From IMG/VR virus record IMGVR_UViG_2547132270_000007: a stretch of 4,550 nucleotides of DNA; one strand, 5' to 3'. The DNA is from a virus. Lineage: Duplodnaviria > Heunggongvirae > Uroviricota > Caudoviricetes. The notes beneath the pieces were generated by a model. It was not told where the DNA came from, searched no databases, and saw only the letters and a program-made list of their open reading frames with translations. This document shows positions 1 through 4,550 of the stretch, piece after piece (positions within the stretch are counted from its first letter, which is position 1; each line of letters starts with the position of its first letter). Both the position numbers and the translations under genes were made by a program.

Positions 1-265
1 GCATCACAAAATTCACTTTAAAAAGGGCGGACATCAGCCGAACTTCAAGAAAAAAACTGATGCCGCCAGGACTACACACAGCAATGTCGTTATTCACAAC
101 CGGATGCGCACTCCCACCATTTAAATTTAACAGACAAGACCGACTCTTTATGGATATCGGAAATGCGCCTTCGTGTTGTGCCCGGTTTTATTTCACCACC
201 TCCGGGCTTTGGTGGCCTCGGCTATACCCCTACAGCGAGAATATTGAATTAATCCAAATAATGGA

Positions 266-1367: not shown

Positions 1368-1643
1368 ATGACATTAGATGAATATTTGAAAAAAAATCGT
1401 GTACGACAGTCTTGTTTGGCCGCGCTGGCTGGTTGTTCGCAATCAATGATTAGCCTCGTTGCTACTGGACGTAGTCAGTTAAGCCCTGAAAAGGTATTGC
1501 GTATCGCAGAGGCTACGAATTTCGAGGTTACACCTCATGAACTCCGGCCTGATATCTACCCGAATCCGACCGATGGTTTACCTGTTGGATGTAAGGCTAA
1601 CACACAAAATGCACAGGAGTTGATTCATGAAAATCAGGCATGA
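1368..1643 (+). CDS. ydaS: Cro-like HTH regulator, YdaS family, 91 aa
   Basis: ORF track 1341-1643. Preferred start is ATG 1368 with SD AAGGTGA (1356-1362) 5 nt upstream; the TTG at 1341 would fall inside the predicted promoter. HTH region QSCLAALAGCSQSMISLVATGRSQLS. First rightward gene after the divergent promoter; overlaps the next gene by 17 nt. Confidence 0.85.
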   Translation: MTLDEYLKKNRVRQSCLAALAGCSQSMISLVATGRSQLSPEKVLRIAEATNFEVTPHELRPDIYPNPTDGLPVGCKANTQNAQELIHENQA

Positions 1644-2049
1644 GCACATCGAATCAGTGCTGTTAGCCCTGGCCGCTGAAAAAGGGCAGGCGTGGGTTGC
1701 TAACGCAATTACTGAAGAATATCTGCGCCAGGGGGGCGGCGAATTGCCCCTGGTACCAGGCAAGGACTGGAATAATCAGCAGAATATCTATCACCGATGG
1801 TTGAAAGGTGAAACAAAAGCGCAAAGGGAAAAAATTCAGAAGCTGATCCCAGCAATTCTGGCAATCCTTCCGCGCGAGCTGCGTCACCGACTCTGCATCT
1901 TCGATACCCTGGAACGCCGTGCATTACTGGCGGCGCAGGAAGCGTTAAGTACGGCAATTGATGCGCATGATGATGCTGTCCAGGCCGTTTACCGGAAAGC
2001 GCATTTCAGCGGCGGTGGTTCGTCCGGCGATTCTGTTGTTGTTCATTAA
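1627..2049 (+). CDS. ydaT: YdaT-family protein (CII-position regulator, historically called a toxin), 140 aa
   Basis: ATG 1627 with SD AGGAG (1615-1619) 7 nt upstream. 140 aa, same length as Rac YdaT; begins MKIRHEHI and ends SGDSVVVH. Sits directly after the Cro-like gene with a 17-nt overlap. Confidence 0.88.
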   Translation: MKIRHEHIESVLLALAAEKGQAWVANAITEEYLRQGGGELPLVPGKDWNNQQNIYHRWLKGETKAQREKIQKLIPAILAILPRELRHRLCIFDTLERRALLAAQEALSTAIDAHDDAVQAVYRKAHFSGGGSSGDSVVVH

Positions 2050-2068
2050 GTGAATAGGGTAACTAACA

Positions 2069-2482
2069 ATGAAAATCAAACCGTTTATCAATGCTGGAAA
2101 TCTTACTCCCGGCGAACTACGAGACTGGATCCTGAAACTTGCAAAAAATGCAGAAATTGCGGGTTGGGGTACAGAAACTTCGGTTCGGAAGCTTCAGAGC
2201 GCAGAACTTAGCCTGCGCTCAGTTATGGACGATTTATCCCCAAGAATTAATTTTCTGGGGTCAGAGCAAATAATTCGTTCGGAAGGTCACTCCAGCGAAG
2301 TTGCGGAAGTTCTGAATACTCTGAGGATAACTTTTGCTGCCGTTCGCGATATTCAACGAACCATTCTCTCATTGATTTCTCAGCTTCAAGAAATTGATAG
2401 TCGCATTCCTGACGGGGGGCATAGAGAGCGTCTTCCAGAATGTGAAGAGCAAGGACAGGGGAAACAGATAAGGGATCAGTAA
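2069..2482 (+). CDS. Hypothetical protein, 137 aa, no family recognised (conflicts with antisense ORF 2247-2702)
   Basis: ATG 19 nt after the ydaT stop, weak SD-like AGGGT 8 nt upstream. Predicted helical protein with acidic C-terminal tail. Around 10 percent rare codons (ATA, AGG, AGA, CGA, GGG). Overlaps the minus-strand ORF by 236 bp, so at most one is likely to be real. Confidence 0.4.
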   Translation: MKIKPFINAGNLTPGELRDWILKLAKNAEIAGWGTETSVRKLQSAELSLRSVMDDLSPRINFLGSEQIIRSEGHSSEVAEVLNTLRITFAAVRDIQRTILSLISQLQEIDSRIPDGGHRERLPECEEQGQGKQIRDQ

Positions 2483-2702
2483 TACGTTTTTCACTTGCCT
2501 GGTATAGCAATCTCGCCAGCGAATCATAGCTACTGGGGCTCAGGAGAGAATCCCGTGAGTGATTTGTAAGAATCAGGTGGAAGCGGGTGAGAACTATAGC
2601 CCTGCATGTTACCAGGTTAACCATGTCGTGGTCGTGCTGGTTAATTTTGTACACAGTGCGCATGTGATTTTTAATTTTTTGGCAAACAGCCATTAAAGAC
2701 AT
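2247..2702 (-). CDS. Hypothetical protein, 151 aa, His/Cys-rich N-terminus, no family recognised; antisense to the early operon
   Basis: Near-consensus SD AAGGAGG (+2709-2715) exactly 6 nt before the ATG (+2700-2702). Perfect TATAAT on the minus strand (+2742-2747) upstream. Fewer rare codons than the overlapping + ORF. Its first 73 codons lie in a region with no plus-strand ORF. Perfect 8-bp hairpin (2197-2220) lies 27 nt past its stop. Confidence 0.5.
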   Translation of the reverse strand: MSLMAVCQKIKNHMRTVYKINQHDHDMVNLVTCRAIVLTRFHLILTNHSRDSLLSPSSYDSLARLLYQASEKRITDPLSVSPVLALHILEDALYAPRQECDYQFLEAEKSMREWFVEYRERQQKLSSEYSELPQLRWSDLPNELFALTPEN

Positions 2703-2765
2703 GTCGAACCTCCTTTGGTTCTGTTGATTGGGGAATCACAGATTATATCCGGAGGAAGGTTCGAC
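2703..2765. promoter_or_regulatory. Inverted-repeat control region between the antisense ORF and the replication initiator
   Basis: 9-bp perfect inverted repeat GTCGAACCT (2703-2711) and AGGTTCGAC (2757-2765), 45 nt apart. It brackets the minus-strand TATAAT (2742-2747); the left arm is the SD-to-start spacer of the minus ORF and the right arm adjoins a plus-strand GGAGG (2751-2755). Confidence 0.35.
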
Positions 2766-2781
2766 ACCAGATGAGGCAATT

Positions 2782-3906
2782 ATGGTTAAGGCTAAAAACA
2801 TGCCAAATCCCATGCCAAAAACTAAGGCAAACAATGAGCCTTATCGCAAGGTAAAAATAACGATATGGGATGATCCCAAATTTAGGGCGTTATCTCCTCT
2901 GCCTCCAAGTGGACAGAGTTTGTTTATTTATCTGCTGACCAGTCCATTTACCGGGATTATTCCCGGGTTGTTTAAAGCCGGGCGGGCAGCAATGGCTGAA
3001 GAGTTGGGGTGGGATATTGAAGCCTTTGACTTAGCCTTAGGCGAAGCCATGAAGCTTGGCATGGTGAAAGCAGATATCAAAGCCAGAGTTTTTTGGCTCC
3101 CGAATGCTGCGAAACACAATCCGCCAAACTCGATAAATGTCATTAAATCTTGGGCAAAGGCATTCGCTTTAATTCCTGATTGCCCTCTCAAATGGGAGGC
3201 CAGGGAATCGCTGAGAGCGGCGTCCTACGGGGTTTCTGAGGCTTTGGGGATGGCATTCGATAAGGCAATCCCTTTGCCTGAGGATAAGCCTAAGGATAAG
3301 GCTAACGCTTTGTCATGCGGTATCCAGATAACAGATAACAGATATATAAACCCCACACATAACGCGCGCGTGCGCGAGAGTGCTCTGACCAGTGAGTCGA
3401 ATGATTTGCCGTTACAGGCAGCGGAACCTGATTACCTGGAAGGCCTGAGCGAACCCATCGGGAAATTTCCGATGACCGATGGCTGGCATCCGTCGCCGGA
3501 TTTCCGACGGCGGGCTGCACTGTGGGGAGTGGCTCTGCCGGAGCCGGAATTTACACCTGCTGAACTTGCCGCCTTCCGGGACTACTGGGCAGCGGAGGGG
3601 AAAGTTTTCACGCAGGTTCAGTGGGAGCAGAAATTCGCCCGTCACGTAAATCACGTCAGGGCGCAGGTTAAACCAGTCAGCAAGGGGGTGAACCATGCAG
3701 CAGCACCAGGTGGCACCGCATCACGGGCAGTTCAGGAAATTCGGGCAGCACGTGAGCAGTGGGAACGTGAAAACGGATTTATCCGCGACGGAAACGGCGT
3801 GGAAGCTGTGGGAACTCATGGGGGAGGTTTATTCGAACCGCTGGACCCAGAAGAACGGGGCCGCACCTTCGAAGCTCTGGATTGCACAGATTGGCGCGAT
3901 GACTGA
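2782..3906 (+). CDS. Phage replication initiation protein with DnaT-like C-terminal domain, about 374 aa
   Basis: ORF track 2728-3906 begins at a TTG with no SD. Preferred start is in-frame ATG 2782 with GAGG 5 nt upstream (ATG 2800 is an alternative). N-terminal region WDDPKFRALS...LFIYLLT looks like a phage replisome-organiser DNA-binding domain; a low-complexity linker follows; then a DnaT-like motif (WHPSPDF...FRDYWAAEGKVFTQVQWEQKFARHV). Sits immediately upstream of a lambda-P-like gene. Confidence 0.85.
   Translation: MVKAKNMPNPMPKTKANNEPYRKVKITIWDDPKFRALSPLPPSGQSLFIYLLTSPFTGIIPGLFKAGRAAMAEELGWDIEAFDLALGEAMKLGMVKADIKARVFWLPNAAKHNPPNSINVIKSWAKAFALIPDCPLKWEARESLRAASYGVSEALGMAFDKAIPLPEDKPKDKANALSCGIQITDNRYINPTHNARVRESALTSESNDLPLQAAEPDYLEGLSEPIGKFPMTDGWHPSPDFRRRAALWGVALPEPEFTPAELAAFRDYWAAEGKVFTQVQWEQKFARHVNHVRAQVKPVSKGVNHAAAPGGTASRAVQEIRAAREQWERENGFIRDGNGVEAVGTHGGGLFEPLDPEERGRTFEALDCTDWRDD
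3259..3380. repeat. Origin-like repeat cluster inside the initiator gene linker (candidate ori)
   Basis: GATAAGGC (3259-3266); tandem GGATAAGCCTAA / GGATAAGGCTAA (3282-3305); tandem CAGATAA CAGATAA CAGATAT (3325-3345); AT-rich TATATAAA; then an alternating CG tract CGCGCGCGTGCGCG (3363-3376). The order (iterons, AT-rich, GC-rich) parallels lambda ori, which lies within the O gene. Confidence 0.4.
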
Positions 3907-4360
3907 GCAGCAAATCCGGCAGGTCTGCCGCCAGTGCATGGACCGTTGCAGGGCAGGTGAAACATGGCCTCCGGACCTGGCTGAGTTTGTGGCGCTGATT
4001 TCGGAGAGCGGGGCAAATCCATTTGGTCTGACGGTGGATAACGTGATGGAGGAATATCGCCGCTGGCGCAATGAGTCCTGGCGATACGACGGGAGTGATA
4101 AATACCCGTGGTCTCAGCCCGTGCTGTATCACATTTGCCTCGAGATGCGGGCAAAAGGGATTGAGCGTCAGATGACCGAAGGGGAGTTAAAACGACTTGC
4201 AGAACGGCAACTGGCGAAATGGGCAAAGCTTGTTGGTGACGGCTTCAGCGTTCCGCCCGTCCGGCGGCAACTGGTAGCACCAAAACGCCCGTCGGGGCCA
4301 ACTCCAATTGAGTTGCTGAAACAGGAATATGAACGCCGGAAAGCGGCTGGGTTTGTTTGA
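3695..4360 (+). CDS. Lambda P-family replication protein (DnaB helicase loader), up to 221 aa
   Basis: Recalled lambda P sequence aligns by eye over the C-terminal two thirds (ours [10 protein letters not shown]...YPWSQ...[11 protein letters not shown]...PPVRRQL vs lambda PSPGQFVAW...YPWKS...LTDAELRRKAA...EPVKQL). ATG 3695 has a strong SD (AAGGGGGTG, 6-nt spacing) and gives near-lambda-P length. Alternative in-frame starts are ATG 3818 and ATG 3899; the weak similarity seen upstream of residue 69 argues against 3899. Confidence 0.85.
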
Positions 4361-4395
4361 GTTGAGAAGTAATTTTTACCGGGAGGAAATTTTAA

Positions 4396-4550
4396 TGGAA
4401 ACTGTTTTTGATGCACTGAAAGCAATGGGAAAAGCCACATCCATAGAACTTGCTGCGCGACTTGATATCAGTCGTGAAGAAGTGCTGAACGAACTATGGG
4501 AACTGAAAAAGGCTGGTTTCGTTGATAAAAGCGCGTACACCTGGCGTGTG
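4396..4550 (+). CDS. Small winged-helix DNA-binding protein (PapI/FaeA-like fold suspected), 5' partial, runs off the window
   Basis: ATG 4396 with GGGAGG (4381-4386) upstream; open to the window end. Translation is [52 protein letters not shown], a pattern typical of small winged-helix regulators. Too short and truncated for the ORF track. Confidence 0.55.

What the first reader, a model, noticed from the sequence alone, without database searches (positions are those of the whole stretch)
2050..2780. AT-richer insert between ydaT and the replication module carries an antisense-overlapping ORF pair
In E. coli K-12 Rac, as I recall, ydaT is followed closely by the replication genes. Here about 730 bp intervene, visibly AT-richer than the flanking replication genes. 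The segment holds two long ORFs on opposite strands (2069-2482 + and 2247-2702 -) overlapping by 236 bp. Each has a plausible start signal and 59-73 open codons outside the overlap, so neither is an obvious shadow of the other. Either one is spurious, or this is a genuine sense/antisense gene pair at an accessory hotspot inside the early operon. Neither protein matches a family I recognise.
Basis: partly seen in the sequence, partly recalled or inferred. Interest (0 to 1): 0.7.

Follow-up and report, generated by a model that had tools for sequence, protein, structure and literature searches.

The report
Conserved antisense-overlapping prophage gene pair
Between the CII-like gene and the replication genes of this Rac-like prophage lies a mobile 0.7-kb cassette with two protein-coding genes on opposite strands that share 236 bases, and both reading frames are kept intact in relatives down to about 25% protein identity, so this is a rare well-supported antisense gene overlap of unknown function.

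Summary
ORF-A (2069-2482, +, 137 aa) and ORF-B (2247-2702, -, 151 aa) overlap by 236 nt in a 732-bp segment that K-12 Rac lacks.

Both ORFs look like real genes.
- Every ORF-B homologue examined keeps a long open frame antisense to its 3' end. Most of these frames (not L008, L049/50) are recognisably ORF-A-like with a conserved ATG. They span E. coli, Salmonella, Serratia, Klebsiella and metagenomes, and the overlap is usually 200-270 nt.
- Each gene shows a coding signature outside the overlap, with no stops in its own frame against 11-51 in the other five.
- PGAP annotates only A, and gene callers in divergent genomes call only B. That explains why each looked like an orphan.

A 68-nt leader upstream of B is more conserved than either protein. 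It carries a -10-like TAnnCT, a strong Shine-Dalgarno site and an 11-bp inverted repeat. In 90 viral contigs it precedes many unrelated leftward genes at the same junction, several with their own overlapping convergent partner. O157:H7 Sakai Sp4 has a comparable pair (ECs_5703 plus an unannotated ORF).

No protein family, fold or defence model matches. The likeliest mechanism is inferred, not shown: B is expressed leftward in the lysogen, A with the early operon on induction, and convergent transcription makes the two mutually exclusive.

The parts
2051..2771 (.). Mobile two-gene cassette. It lies flush between the ydaT stop codon and the Shine-Dalgarno site of the replication gene.
   Evidence: Homology to K-12 Rac ydaT ends at 2050. 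A Rac-like prophage with ydaU/ydaV (L003) shares window 1619-2785 and carries about 727 bp that K-12 lacks. Conservation among divergent loci begins at the ORF-A ATG and ends at the -35-like TGGTG at about 2770.
2069..2482 (+). ORF-A, 137 aa. It is acidic and predicted to form three long helices with a disordered tail. It is co-directional with the early (pR-type) operon, 19 nt after ydaT.
   Evidence: conserved ATG and motifs (KPxINAGxLxPxELxxW; RINFLxSDQIIRSxDHS) at 40-47% identity; 0 stops in the A frame against 11-37 in the other five frames across 8 lineages in the A-only part; codon-position divergence .49/.38/.60; omega about 0.25 (p=0.013) among 19 close haplotypes; called homologues P0020-P0034. 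AF2 mean pLDDT 74.5, about 83-95 over residues 41-110.
2247..2702 (-). ORF-B, 151 aa. It is acidic and helical, with the invariant C-terminal motif LPELxWxDLPxELF. It is co-directional with the cI-like repressor and antisense to the early operon.
   Evidence: full-length homologues down to 48% identity; 23 representative clusters in 1.84 billion proteins, about 150-160 aa; 0 stops in the B frame against 31-51 in other frames in the B-only part; codon-position divergence .42/.29/.53; 8 of 24 family members weakly hit NF033230 (ECs1072 family).
2247..2482 (.). The 236-nt antisense overlap (3' end to 3' end). Codon position 1 of A lies opposite position 1 of B, and A position 2 lies opposite B position 3. 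It encodes the most conserved motifs of both proteins.
   Evidence: overlap is 236 nt in most loci and 203-272 in distant ones (exceptions: L036 158, L008 230); this is the least divergent DNA of the cassette, and the most variable site is B's wobble position; the A frame stays open with P = 0.04-0.29 per lineage under synonymous resampling of B.
2700..2770 (-). Conserved leader of ORF-B: -35-like CTGGTG (2770-2765), 17-nt spacer, -10 TATAAT (2747-2742; aligned consensus TAnnCT), Shine-Dalgarno AAGGAGGT (2715-2708), ATG (2702-2700).
   Evidence: in 15 loci whose proteins are only 25-60% identical, the leader is better conserved than the coding regions, and conservation stops abruptly upstream of TGG. 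T, A and T of the hexamer are invariant, and 7 of 15 have TGnTAnnnT; the same leader precedes many different genes in 90 viral contigs; no Rfam match; coordinates.
2701..2767 (.). An 11-bp inverted repeat (GTGTCGAACCT at 2767-2757; AGGTTCGACAT at 2711-2701) enclosing an inner palindrome (2741-2721).
   Evidence: repeat I5; the hairpin has dG -27.3 (z -3.8) on the minus strand, where it would bury B's Shine-Dalgarno site and AUG, and -34.5 (z -4.2) on the plus strand; the outer helix is paired in 84% of cells, against 30-47% for the whole structure with slid partners, but there are few compensatory changes. Whether it acts as RNA or as DNA is open.
2779..2806 (-). A second promoter-like site (TTGGCA-16-CATAAT) lying over the start of the replication gene. 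Transcripts from it would include the whole hairpin.
   Evidence: 10 of 12 match. It is not in the conserved part of the leader.
1627..2049 (+). Left flank: YdaT (functional CII analogue), with a YdaT-box-like site TTGATTcatgaaAATCAg at 1620-1637.
   Evidence: The box sequences are taken from PMC9986795 and PMC11879457.
2782..3906 (+). Right flank: replication initiator with a DnaT domain, followed by a lambda-P-like gene (probable start 3899, ends 4360).

Best explanation
The segment is a self-contained, horizontally mobile cassette of two real protein-coding genes that converge and share 236 bp.

ORF-A has no promoter of its own. It is read as part of the rightward early operon, just before the replication genes.

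ORF-B is read leftward from its own conserved leader, which has a sigma-70-like -10 and a strong Shine-Dalgarno site. That leader abuts the ribosome-binding site of the replication gene.

Inferred mechanism:
- In the lysogen the early promoter is repressed, so only B is made, as a lysogen-expressed accessory protein.
- On induction, strong rightward transcription runs head-on into B's promoter and produces an RNA fully complementary to B's 3' half.
- B is therefore shut off as A appears, so the two are expressed either/or.
- A may additionally antagonise B protein so that the phage's own replication can proceed.
- Conversely, leftward transcription from the leader may damp leaky early transcription into the replication genes.

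Shown here: both frames and the leader are conserved, the cassette is mobile, and the architecture recurs with other genes. Inferred: promoter activity, mutual exclusion, and the biochemical roles of the two acidic helical proteins.
For: Both genes appear real.
- Every one of 44 loci (29 distinct A/B pairs), plus 7 more distant loci, keeps both frames open.
- ORF-A keeps its ATG, Shine-Dalgarno site and N-terminal motif in the part that does not overlap B.
- Stops in the non-overlapping parts: 0 in the A frame against 11-37 elsewhere, and 0 in the B frame against 31-51 elsewhere.
- Codon-position divergence is lowest at position 2 and highest at position 3 in both non-overlapping parts.
- Among close haplotypes omega is about 0.25 for the A-only part (p=0.013).
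- With the frame pre-specified from the window, the A frame is open in six other lineages, with a resampling probability of 0.04-0.29 each (product about 2e-7).
- Both families were recovered independently by profile searches.

The cassette is mobile. It is absent from K-12 Rac. It is present next to DnaT/P, YdaU/YdaV, IstB/DnaB, HTH_36/DnaB, Toprim-type and lambda-P modules, and in a P2-like prophage. It is always antisense to the early operon.

The leader is conserved with an invariant TAnnCT and Shine-Dalgarno site. It is shared with many other leftward genes at the same junction, and several of those have overlapping convergent partners.

No intrinsic terminator was found between the two genes on either strand, so convergent transcripts should overlap.
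Against: - There are no expression or translation data for either gene.
- Inside the overlap the substitution pattern follows B's frame (B's wobble position is the most variable). pN/pS for A there is 0.88 and omega among close haplotypes is 0.66 (not significant). Selection on A's C-terminal half is therefore not demonstrated beyond frame openness and a confident AF2 helix.
- Among close E. coli haplotypes the B-only part shows omega of about 1 (26 non-synonymous, 10 synonymous). This indicates relaxed or diversifying selection.
- The leader's -35 is poor.
- The inverted repeat could mean the element works as RNA rather than as a promoter.
- A few loci keep B with a truncated or replaced A (L036, L008, L049).
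- The B model is of low confidence (pLDDT 58).
- No homology supports any biochemical role.
Confidence: 0.6

Rival explanations
1. Only ORF-B is a gene. ORF-A is a shadow frame kept open by B's amino-acid sequence and by the conserved DNA.
For: In the overlap the divergence pattern is the one expected for B alone (B position 3, which is A position 2, is most variable). pN/pS for A there is 0.88. Gene callers in divergent genomes call only B.
Against: The 59 codons of A that lie outside B are open in all lineages, while the other five frames hold 11-37 stops. They show a position 2 < position 1 < position 3 pattern, omega 0.25 and a conserved ATG, Shine-Dalgarno site and motif. Given B's protein, the A frame would be open only 4-29% of the time per lineage. 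AF2 models A residues 41-110 at pLDDT of about 83-95.
Confidence: 0.08
2. Only ORF-A is a gene, as in the PGAP annotation. ORF-B is a spurious antisense ORF.
For: RefSeq annotates only A in the 22 E. coli genomes that carry the full segment. Among close haplotypes the B-only part has omega of about 1.
Against: B homologues are full-length down to about 25% identity with invariant motifs. The B-only part has 0 stops against 31-51 in other frames, plus a coding-type position pattern. B has a near-perfect Shine-Dalgarno site and a leader more conserved than the coding sequence. B occurs where A's N-terminus is lost or replaced (L008, L049).
Confidence: 0.04
3. Both genes are real, but the overlap is only genome compaction. 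The two are independent accessory genes with no regulatory or functional coupling.
For: Nothing here measures regulation. Some cassettes under the same leader have abutting, non-overlapping convergent genes (83 aa / 98 aa, overlap 0). A BssS-like gene has no partner.
Against: A and B are co-inherited across the whole family with a similar overlap length. Long overlaps recur in cassette families with no evident similarity to A/B at the same site (97/117 aa with 273 nt; 72/96 aa with 167 nt). Convergent transcription across more than 200 bp without a terminator in between is generally expected to interfere, by established knowledge of transcriptional interference.
Confidence: 0.18
4. The pair is part of the phage's own lysis-lysogeny circuitry rather than an accessory module. 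A is a CII/CIII-like establishment factor. The leftward leader is a pRE/pO(oop)-like promoter whose transcript is antisense to cII/cro and may run on towards the repressor gene.
For: In loci without YdaT, A directly follows cro, in the position of cII (L004, L006, L037, L046). The leader sits where lambda has pO/oop, by established knowledge of the lambda map. No terminator was found after B. The leader is conserved regardless of the gene it drives.
Against: A has no DNA-binding domain or similarity to CII, CIII or YdaT. The cassette coexists with YdaT, and in L047 with a CP76-type CII. Closely related, presumably equally functional backbones lack it or carry other cassettes.
Confidence: 0.12

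Closest known systems
Lambda cII / oop antisense arrangement (pO promoter at the cII-O junction)
   Same: Same map position, between the CII-type gene and the replication initiator. A leftward promoter next to the start of the replication gene gives a transcript antisense to the 3' end of the preceding rightward gene.
   Different: oop is a 77-nt non-coding RNA with its own terminator. Here the leftward transcript encodes a conserved 151-aa protein, the overlap is 236 nt of coding sequence on both strands, and there is no sequence similarity or Rfam match.
Prophage morons / accessory hotspots
   Same: Presence/absence polymorphism between otherwise near-identical prophages. Orientation is opposite to the surrounding operon. 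The cassette has its own promoter-like leader and a lower GC than its neighbours.
   Different: The unit is a convergent, overlapping two-gene cassette, one half of which depends on the phage's early promoter. No terminator was found. The leader is shared among many different genes.
Antiparallel overlapping genes proposed in E. coli O157:H7 (e.g. laoB, pop; PMC5810103, PMC7103648, PMC9927249)
   Same: A long antisense overlap of two protein-coding ORFs that annotation pipelines suppress.
   Different: According to PMC9927249, its three antisense genes are distributed more narrowly than the genes they overlap. Here both partners have independent non-overlapping domains and are co-conserved across Enterobacterales genera to about 25-45% identity. 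None of the three antisense genes in PMC9927249 lies in a phage-derived region.
ECs1072 family phage-associated protein (NCBIfam NF033230); ECs_5703 in O157:H7 Sakai prophage Sp4
   Same: Same position, strand, size (151-152 aa) and leader. There is an unannotated convergent ORF overlapping by 317 nt with an A-like N-terminus. 8 of 24 B-family members hit the model weakly.
   Different: The window's ORF-B does not hit the model. A profile-sequence comparison with ECs_5703 is not significant. The relationship is at most that of a distant superfamily, and the function is equally unknown.
Type I toxin-antitoxin systems (hok/sok-like)
   Same: Convergent antisense overlap, and a Shine-Dalgarno site that could be buried in a leader hairpin.
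   Different: Both partners are soluble, acidic proteins of 137-151 aa. There is no small hydrophobic toxin and no dedicated non-coding antitoxin RNA.

Membership tests
Genuine antiparallel overlapping protein-coding gene pair | Both reading frames intact in homologues that have diverged to saturation at synonymous sites | tested here: met
   all loci keep both frames. Only L036 has a shortened A, and L008 and L049 have a different A N-terminus.
Genuine antiparallel overlapping protein-coding gene pair | Each partner shows an independent coding signature outside the overlap | tested here: met
   codon-position pattern, and 0 stops against 11-51 in other frames. A-only omega is 0.25 (p=0.013).
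Genuine antiparallel overlapping protein-coding gene pair | Purifying selection on both proteins inside the overlap | tested here: inconclusive
   B-frame pN/pS is 0.44 and A-frame 0.88; changes that are non-synonymous in A and silent in B occur 6 times in 304 opportunities, against 9 in 300 for the reverse (not significant). Frame openness is significant.
Genuine antiparallel overlapping protein-coding gene pair | Transcription and translation of both strands | not testable with these tools
   This needs strand-specific RNA-seq, Ribo-seq or tagging.
Prophage moron / accessory cassette | Present or absent between otherwise homologous prophages, with sharp boundaries | tested here: met
   (K-12 Rac against the window and L003). 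(an alternative cassette in the same backbone).
Prophage moron / accessory cassette | Own promoter and terminator | tested here: inconclusive
   There is a conserved -10-like TAnnCT with TGn in 7 of 15 sequences, but a weak -35. No intrinsic terminator was found.
ECs1072 family (NF033230) | Score above the curated cut-off (70 bits) against the family model | tested here: not met
   no hit for the window's ORF-B; 8 of 24 relatives hit (best E 5.8e-8); two of them scored about 20 bits, far below the 70-bit cut-off.
Type II toxin-antitoxin system | Co-directional bicistronic operon with a recognisable toxin or antitoxin domain | tested here: not met
   The genes converge. There are no Pfam, NCBIfam or PADLOC hits.
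Known anti-phage defence systems (PADLOC-DB 2.0) | A match to any defence protein model | tested here: not met
   no match for A, B or three distant B relatives.
CII / YdaT-type establishment regulator (for ORF-A) | HTH or POU DNA-binding domain and similarity to CII, YdaT or CP76 families | tested here: not met
   A is a three-helix coiled-coil-like protein with no family match.

The most novel reading that the evidence does not exclude
The cassette may belong to an unrecognised class of prophage modules: convergent, 3'-overlapping two-gene cassettes driven on one side by a shared portable leader and on the other by the phage's early promoter. In that class the same DNA would encode a lysogen-state protein and an induction-state antagonist, and the overlap itself would be the switch. 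At least two sequence-distinct cassette types (A/B with the ECs1072 type, and the 97/117-aa type), and possibly the 72-75-aa type, would be built on this plan at the cro/cII-replication junction of lambdoid and P2-like prophages, including CP-933P/Sp4 of E. coli O157:H7.
Probability: 0.3. Interest if true: 0.85.

Novelty: new variant of a known kind. Interest (0 to 1): 0.7.

Why it matters
Long antisense overlaps between bacterial protein-coding genes are disputed, and annotation pipelines remove them. Here that removal hides one partner in every genome: A in divergent genomes, and B in E. coli RefSeq.

This pair gives an unusually clean comparative case. Each partner has its own non-overlapping conserved domain, and the two are co-inherited across genera.

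The work also exposes a previously undescribed hotspot and a portable leader at the cII-replication junction of lambdoid prophages. That junction includes the well-studied paaR2/ydaS/ydaT locus of O157:H7, whose published maps show only ydaS and ydaT there (PMC8630535).

If the either/or expression model holds, the overlap is a compact way to tie an accessory function to prophage state. It is directly testable with existing strains and public O157 transcriptome and ribosome-profiling data.

Tried and rejected
Searches that gave nothing useful:
- Pfam, PHROGs, PADLOC and NCBIfam scans of A and B found no functional hit. phrog_37051 is simply ORF-A itself, with function unknown.
- PDB sequence-profile searches gave nothing meaningful.
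- Foldseek of the A model against PDB gave only generic coiled-coil hairpins with E > 0.2.
- Foldseek of the low-confidence B model against BFVD gave nothing. The afdb50 library was unavailable.
- Rfam had no match for the leader.
- tblastn against 50,697 phage records found one near-identical record only.
- Literature searches found no description of the pair.

Structure of the leader:
- RNAalifold on the leader did not recover the long hairpin.
- The hand-specified structure is well paired, but covariation is too weak to call it an RNA structure.

A statistical trap:
- Applying the synonymous-resampling test to the longest antisense ORF found post hoc gives low P even for a probably spurious 51-aa ORF.
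- I therefore use that test only where the frame was fixed in advance from the window (excluding the window itself).

Ideas considered and dropped:
- A LexA box in the inner palindrome. The spacing is wrong (CTGT-N13-ACAG).
- TTGATT-N4-AATCAC at 2724-2739 as a second YdaT box. The spacing is N4 rather than N6, and it is not conserved in other leaders.
- The clamp-binding-like look of B's C-terminal ELF motif. It rests on memory only and was not tested.
Full report
**1. What is in the window**

The window is the early region of a Rac-like lambdoid prophage.
- A cI-like HTH repressor without a peptidase domain (799-1263, -).
- A YdaS/Cro-like gene (1368-1643, +).
- A YdaT/CII-like gene (1627-2049, +).
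- The segment in question.
- A replication initiator with a DnaT domain (2782-3906, +) and a lambda-P-like gene ending at 4360.

They overlap by 236 nt, with 59 and 73 codons outside the overlap.

K-12 Rac has ydaT followed by ydaU after 12 nt. The window's ydaT is 94.7% identical to it, and the homology stops at base 2050.

The segment is 44.9% GC, against about 52% for ydaT and the replication gene. The repressor and ydaS genes are just as AT-rich, so composition is a weak argument.

**2. Why each ORF looked like an orphan**

The full segment occurs in 22 of 5,426 complete E. coli genomes at 96-99.7% identity. There RefSeq annotates only ORF-A. One deposited phage record annotates both.

A first protein search found only homologues of at least 85% identity for ORF-A. 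For ORF-B it found full-length 151-aa homologues down to 48% identity, in Salmonella, Serratia and metagenomes. That seemed to favour B alone.

Reading the DNA of those divergent loci changed the picture.
- Each one has an uncalled open frame antisense to the 3' end of the B homologue. In most, the stop is at the same place.
- The translations are recognisably ORF-A.
- Gene callers do not allow such overlaps, so they keep one partner and drop the other.
- A profile built from the recovered A sequences then found A-like proteins at 42-57% identity. These had been called in genomes where B was the partner dropped.

**3. Comparative tests**

I collected 44 loci from genomes, viral contigs and metagenomes, giving 29 distinct A/B pairs. 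All keep a long antisense frame across the 3' end of B. The overlap is 236 nt in most and 212-239 in the others, with two exceptions.
- L036 is a degraded context where A is truncated.
- L008 has an A N-terminus that is not homologous.

ORF-A has a conserved ATG, preceded in relatives by good Shine-Dalgarno sequences.

Results for eight divergent lineages, in the parts that do not overlap:

| Region | Stops in own frame | Stops in the other five frames | Divergence at codon positions 1/2/3 |
|---|---|---|---|
| A-only | 0 | 11-37 | .49/.38/.60 |
| B-only | 0 | 31-51 | .42/.29/.53 |

Both regions show the pattern expected of coding sequence.

Among 19 close haplotypes, the A-only part has omega of about 0.25 (5 non-synonymous against 8 synonymous changes, p=0.013). 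The B-only part has omega of about 1 (26 against 10).

Inside the overlap, the DNA is the most conserved of the cassette. The most variable site is B's third codon position, which is A's second. B's constraint therefore dominates there, and selection on A's protein sequence in the overlap is not separately demonstrable (pN/pS 0.88).

A's frame is nevertheless kept open. I fixed the frame from the window and resampled synonymous codons of B in six other lineages. The frame would be open with probability 0.04-0.29 each, a product of about 2e-7. The other two antisense frames carry 1-6 stops each in every lineage.

This test is only valid for a frame specified in advance. Applied post hoc to the longest antisense ORF, it gives low values even for a probably spurious ORF.

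**4. Deeper relatives**

An exhaustive profile search of 1.84 billion representative proteins found only 23 clusters of B-like proteins. They are about 150-160 aa long with an invariant C-terminal motif, LPELxWxDLPxELF.

I examined the loci of five of them, at 23-36% identity to the window's B. Every one has the same geometry.
- B lies on the strand opposite to cro.
- B lies between cro (with or without ydaT or a small gene) and the replication genes.
- An antisense ORF of 134-175 or more codons overlaps its 3' end by 203-272 nt.
- Four of the five carry the A motifs.

The replication modules differ between loci: DnaT/P, YdaU/YdaV, IstB/DnaB, HTH_36/DnaB, a Toprim primase-helicase, and lambda-P. 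One locus is a P2-like prophage in which B is again antisense to the Cox-side early operon. The pair therefore moves as a unit between phage backbones.

**5. The leader**

The 68 nt upstream of B's ATG are more conserved than either protein across all these loci. Conservation stops abruptly upstream of TGGTG.

Elements of the leader, in window coordinates:

| Element | Sequence | Coordinates (- strand) |
|---|---|---|
| -35-like | CTGGTG | 2770-2765 |
| Spacer | 17 nt | |
| -10 | TATAAT | 2747-2742 |
| Shine-Dalgarno | AAGGAGGT | 2715-2708 |
| Start codon | ATG | 2702-2700 |

In the alignment the hexamer is TAnnCT with T, A and T invariant. Seven of 15 sequences have an extended TGnTAnnnT.

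An 11-bp inverted repeat (2767-2757 and 2711-2701) flanks this region.
- If transcribed leftward from further upstream, for example from the TTGGCA-16-CATAAT site at 2806-2779, it would bury B's Shine-Dalgarno site and AUG. The hairpin has dG -27.3 and z -3.8.
- In the rightward transcript it forms a hairpin just before the ribosome-binding site of the replication gene, with dG -34.5 and z -4.2.
- Pairing potential is conserved: 84% of cells for the outer helix, against 30-47% for the whole structure with slid partners. Compensatory changes are too few to prove an RNA structure.
- Rfam has nothing here.

**6. A hotspot with a portable leader**

In 36 further E. coli genomes only the last ~86-89 nt of the queried segment (window 2692/2695-2780, i.e. 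the leader and B's first codons) match the window. In the two examined (strains 214-4 and F9792), the same ydaT-to-DnaT backbone carries a different convergent pair. It is 98 aa rightward and 83 aa leftward, abutting, and both genes are annotated.

A scan of viral contigs for the 3' part of the leader found 90 contigs. The leader precedes at least eight sequence-distinct groups of leftward genes:
- the B family;
- the ECs1072 family (NF033230, E 3e-38);
- a 97-99-aa family;
- 72-83-aa genes, several sharing an FDK...WVDSI N-terminal motif;
- a BssS-like gene (PF13991, E 1e-15);
- others.

Several have a convergent partner overlapping the 3' end: 97/117 aa by 273 nt, 99/92 by 207, 152/178 by 323, 156/160 by 269, 72/96 by 167, and 75/97 by 176.

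**7. E. coli O157:H7 Sakai**

In prophage Sp4 the gene order is paaR2-paaA2-parE2, ydaS, ydaT, ECs_5703, then the replication gene. ECs_5703 is 151 aa, on the minus strand, and carries the leader.

An unannotated rightward ORF overlaps ECs_5703 by 317 nt. It has an A-like N-terminus (SPHIWRGGLSDVELAEWLIHKANA). hhalign against the A profile gives E 2e-4 at 47% probability.

The papers on this locus describe only ydaS and ydaT between paaR2 and the replication gene (PMC8630535; PMC9986795).

The link between B and the ECs1072 family is weak.
- 8 of 24 B relatives hit the model; two of them scored about 20 bits against the 70-bit cut-off.
- The window's B does not hit it.
- Direct profile comparison with ECs_5703 is not significant.

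**8. The proteins**

Both are soluble and acidic. A has pI 4.8-6.2. B carries a net charge of -7 to -12 in most lineages.

AF2 models A as three long helices with a disordered tail. Mean pLDDT is 74.5, and about 83-95 for residues 41-110, which includes the overlap-encoded helix. B is all-helical, but the model has low confidence (pLDDT 58).

No family, solved structure, viral model or defence model matches either protein.

**9. Mechanism**

Shown:
- Two conserved genes that converge and overlap.
- A follows the early operon directly, with gaps of 19-57 nt and no conserved upstream element.
- B has its own conserved leader abutting the replication gene.
- No intrinsic terminator was found between them.
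- The cassette is mobile, and the design recurs with other genes.

Inferred:
- With the early promoter repressed in the lysogen, only B is expressed.
- On induction, rightward transcription collides with and occludes B's promoter. It also yields RNA complementary to B's mRNA, so B falls as A rises.
- A may neutralise B protein.
- Leftward transcription may also insulate the replication genes from leaky early transcription.

I put about 0.85 on both being real protein-coding genes, and about 0.4 on the either/or expression model. I have low confidence in any specific biochemical role.

The rivals are set out separately with the evidence for and against each: A as a shadow frame, B as spurious, the overlap as incidental, or the pair as part of core lysis-lysogeny circuitry.

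**10. Novelty and verdict**

Antisense overlaps, morons and convergent-promoter switches are all known kinds. A deeply co-conserved, 200-320-nt coding overlap, built into a mobile cassette with a shared leader at the cII-replication junction, does not appear in the literature I could search.

I rate it a new variant of a known kind, with interest about 0.7. It is a strong comparative case in a contested area and is immediately testable in O157:H7. However, expression is unproven and the function is unknown.

Noticed in passing
window 25-80 (-): A DicF-like small RNA. The Rfam RF00039 match covers the full model length at 39.1 bits (E 4e-6), below the gathering score of 48. It lies in the kil/dicB-side region of the prophage.
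   Followed up: no
window 1620-1637 (+): TTGATTcatgaaAATCAg spans the ydaS end and the ydaT start codon. It matches the published YdaT-box/OM operator (TTGATT-N6-AATCAA; PMC9986795, PMC11879457) in all but one base. A similar palindrome with N4 spacing (TTGATTggggAATCAc, 2724-2739) lies inside ORF-B's leader, but it is not conserved in other leaders.
   Followed up: partly
L002 (PP818812.1, 'Actinobacillus phage vB_Apl-pPE4'): This deposited phage, labelled with an Actinobacillus pleuropneumoniae host, is 96-98.5% identical to E. coli Rac-like prophage DNA over window 1619-4550 (2,932 bp). It is the only one of 50,697 phage records to carry the cassette. The host label looks doubtful.
   Followed up: no
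L144 19117-19677 (+) = NC_002695.2 1,169,116-1,169,676: E. coli O157:H7 Sakai prophage Sp4 has an unannotated rightward ORF (186 codons from the GTG; probable ATG at about 19168, giving 169 aa). It overlaps the annotated ECs_5703 by 317 nt, right after ydaT in the paaR2/ydaS/ydaT locus studied in the literature.
   Followed up: partly
L052 1960-2508; L053 1963-2511 (E. coli 214-4 and F9792): An alternative cassette occupies the same site of the same backbone. It has a 98-aa rightward gene and an 83-aa leftward gene that abut without overlap. The leftward gene is driven by a leader 100% identical to the window's. Neither protein has a known family.
   Followed up: partly
L054, L059 and about 29 other viral contigs: A cassette family with no evident similarity to A/B sits under the same leader. 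It has a 97-99-aa leftward gene and a 92-117-aa rightward gene (N-terminus KITIKYDGTTISIAPIT) overlapping by 207-273 nt. The partner's N-terminal sequence is similar in the two divergent examples.
   Followed up: partly
L064 (viral contig), leftward gene after the leader: A BssS-like (biofilm regulator family, PF13991, E 1e-15) 83-aa gene is driven by the same leader and has no overlapping partner. This shows that the leader also serves ordinary single-gene morons.
   Followed up: no
window 2483-2702 (B-only part), 19 close haplotypes: Among near-identical E. coli/Salmonella copies, the N-terminal half of ORF-B accumulates non-synonymous and synonymous changes at the same rate (26 against 10, omega of about 1), although the frame is never broken. 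This indicates relaxed or diversifying selection.
   Followed up: partly
window 3695-4360 (+): The lambda-P-like ORF is listed from an ATG at 3695. The homologous annotated genes (153 aa) correspond to a start at 3899, which overlaps the stop of the upstream initiator by 8 nt.
   Followed up: no
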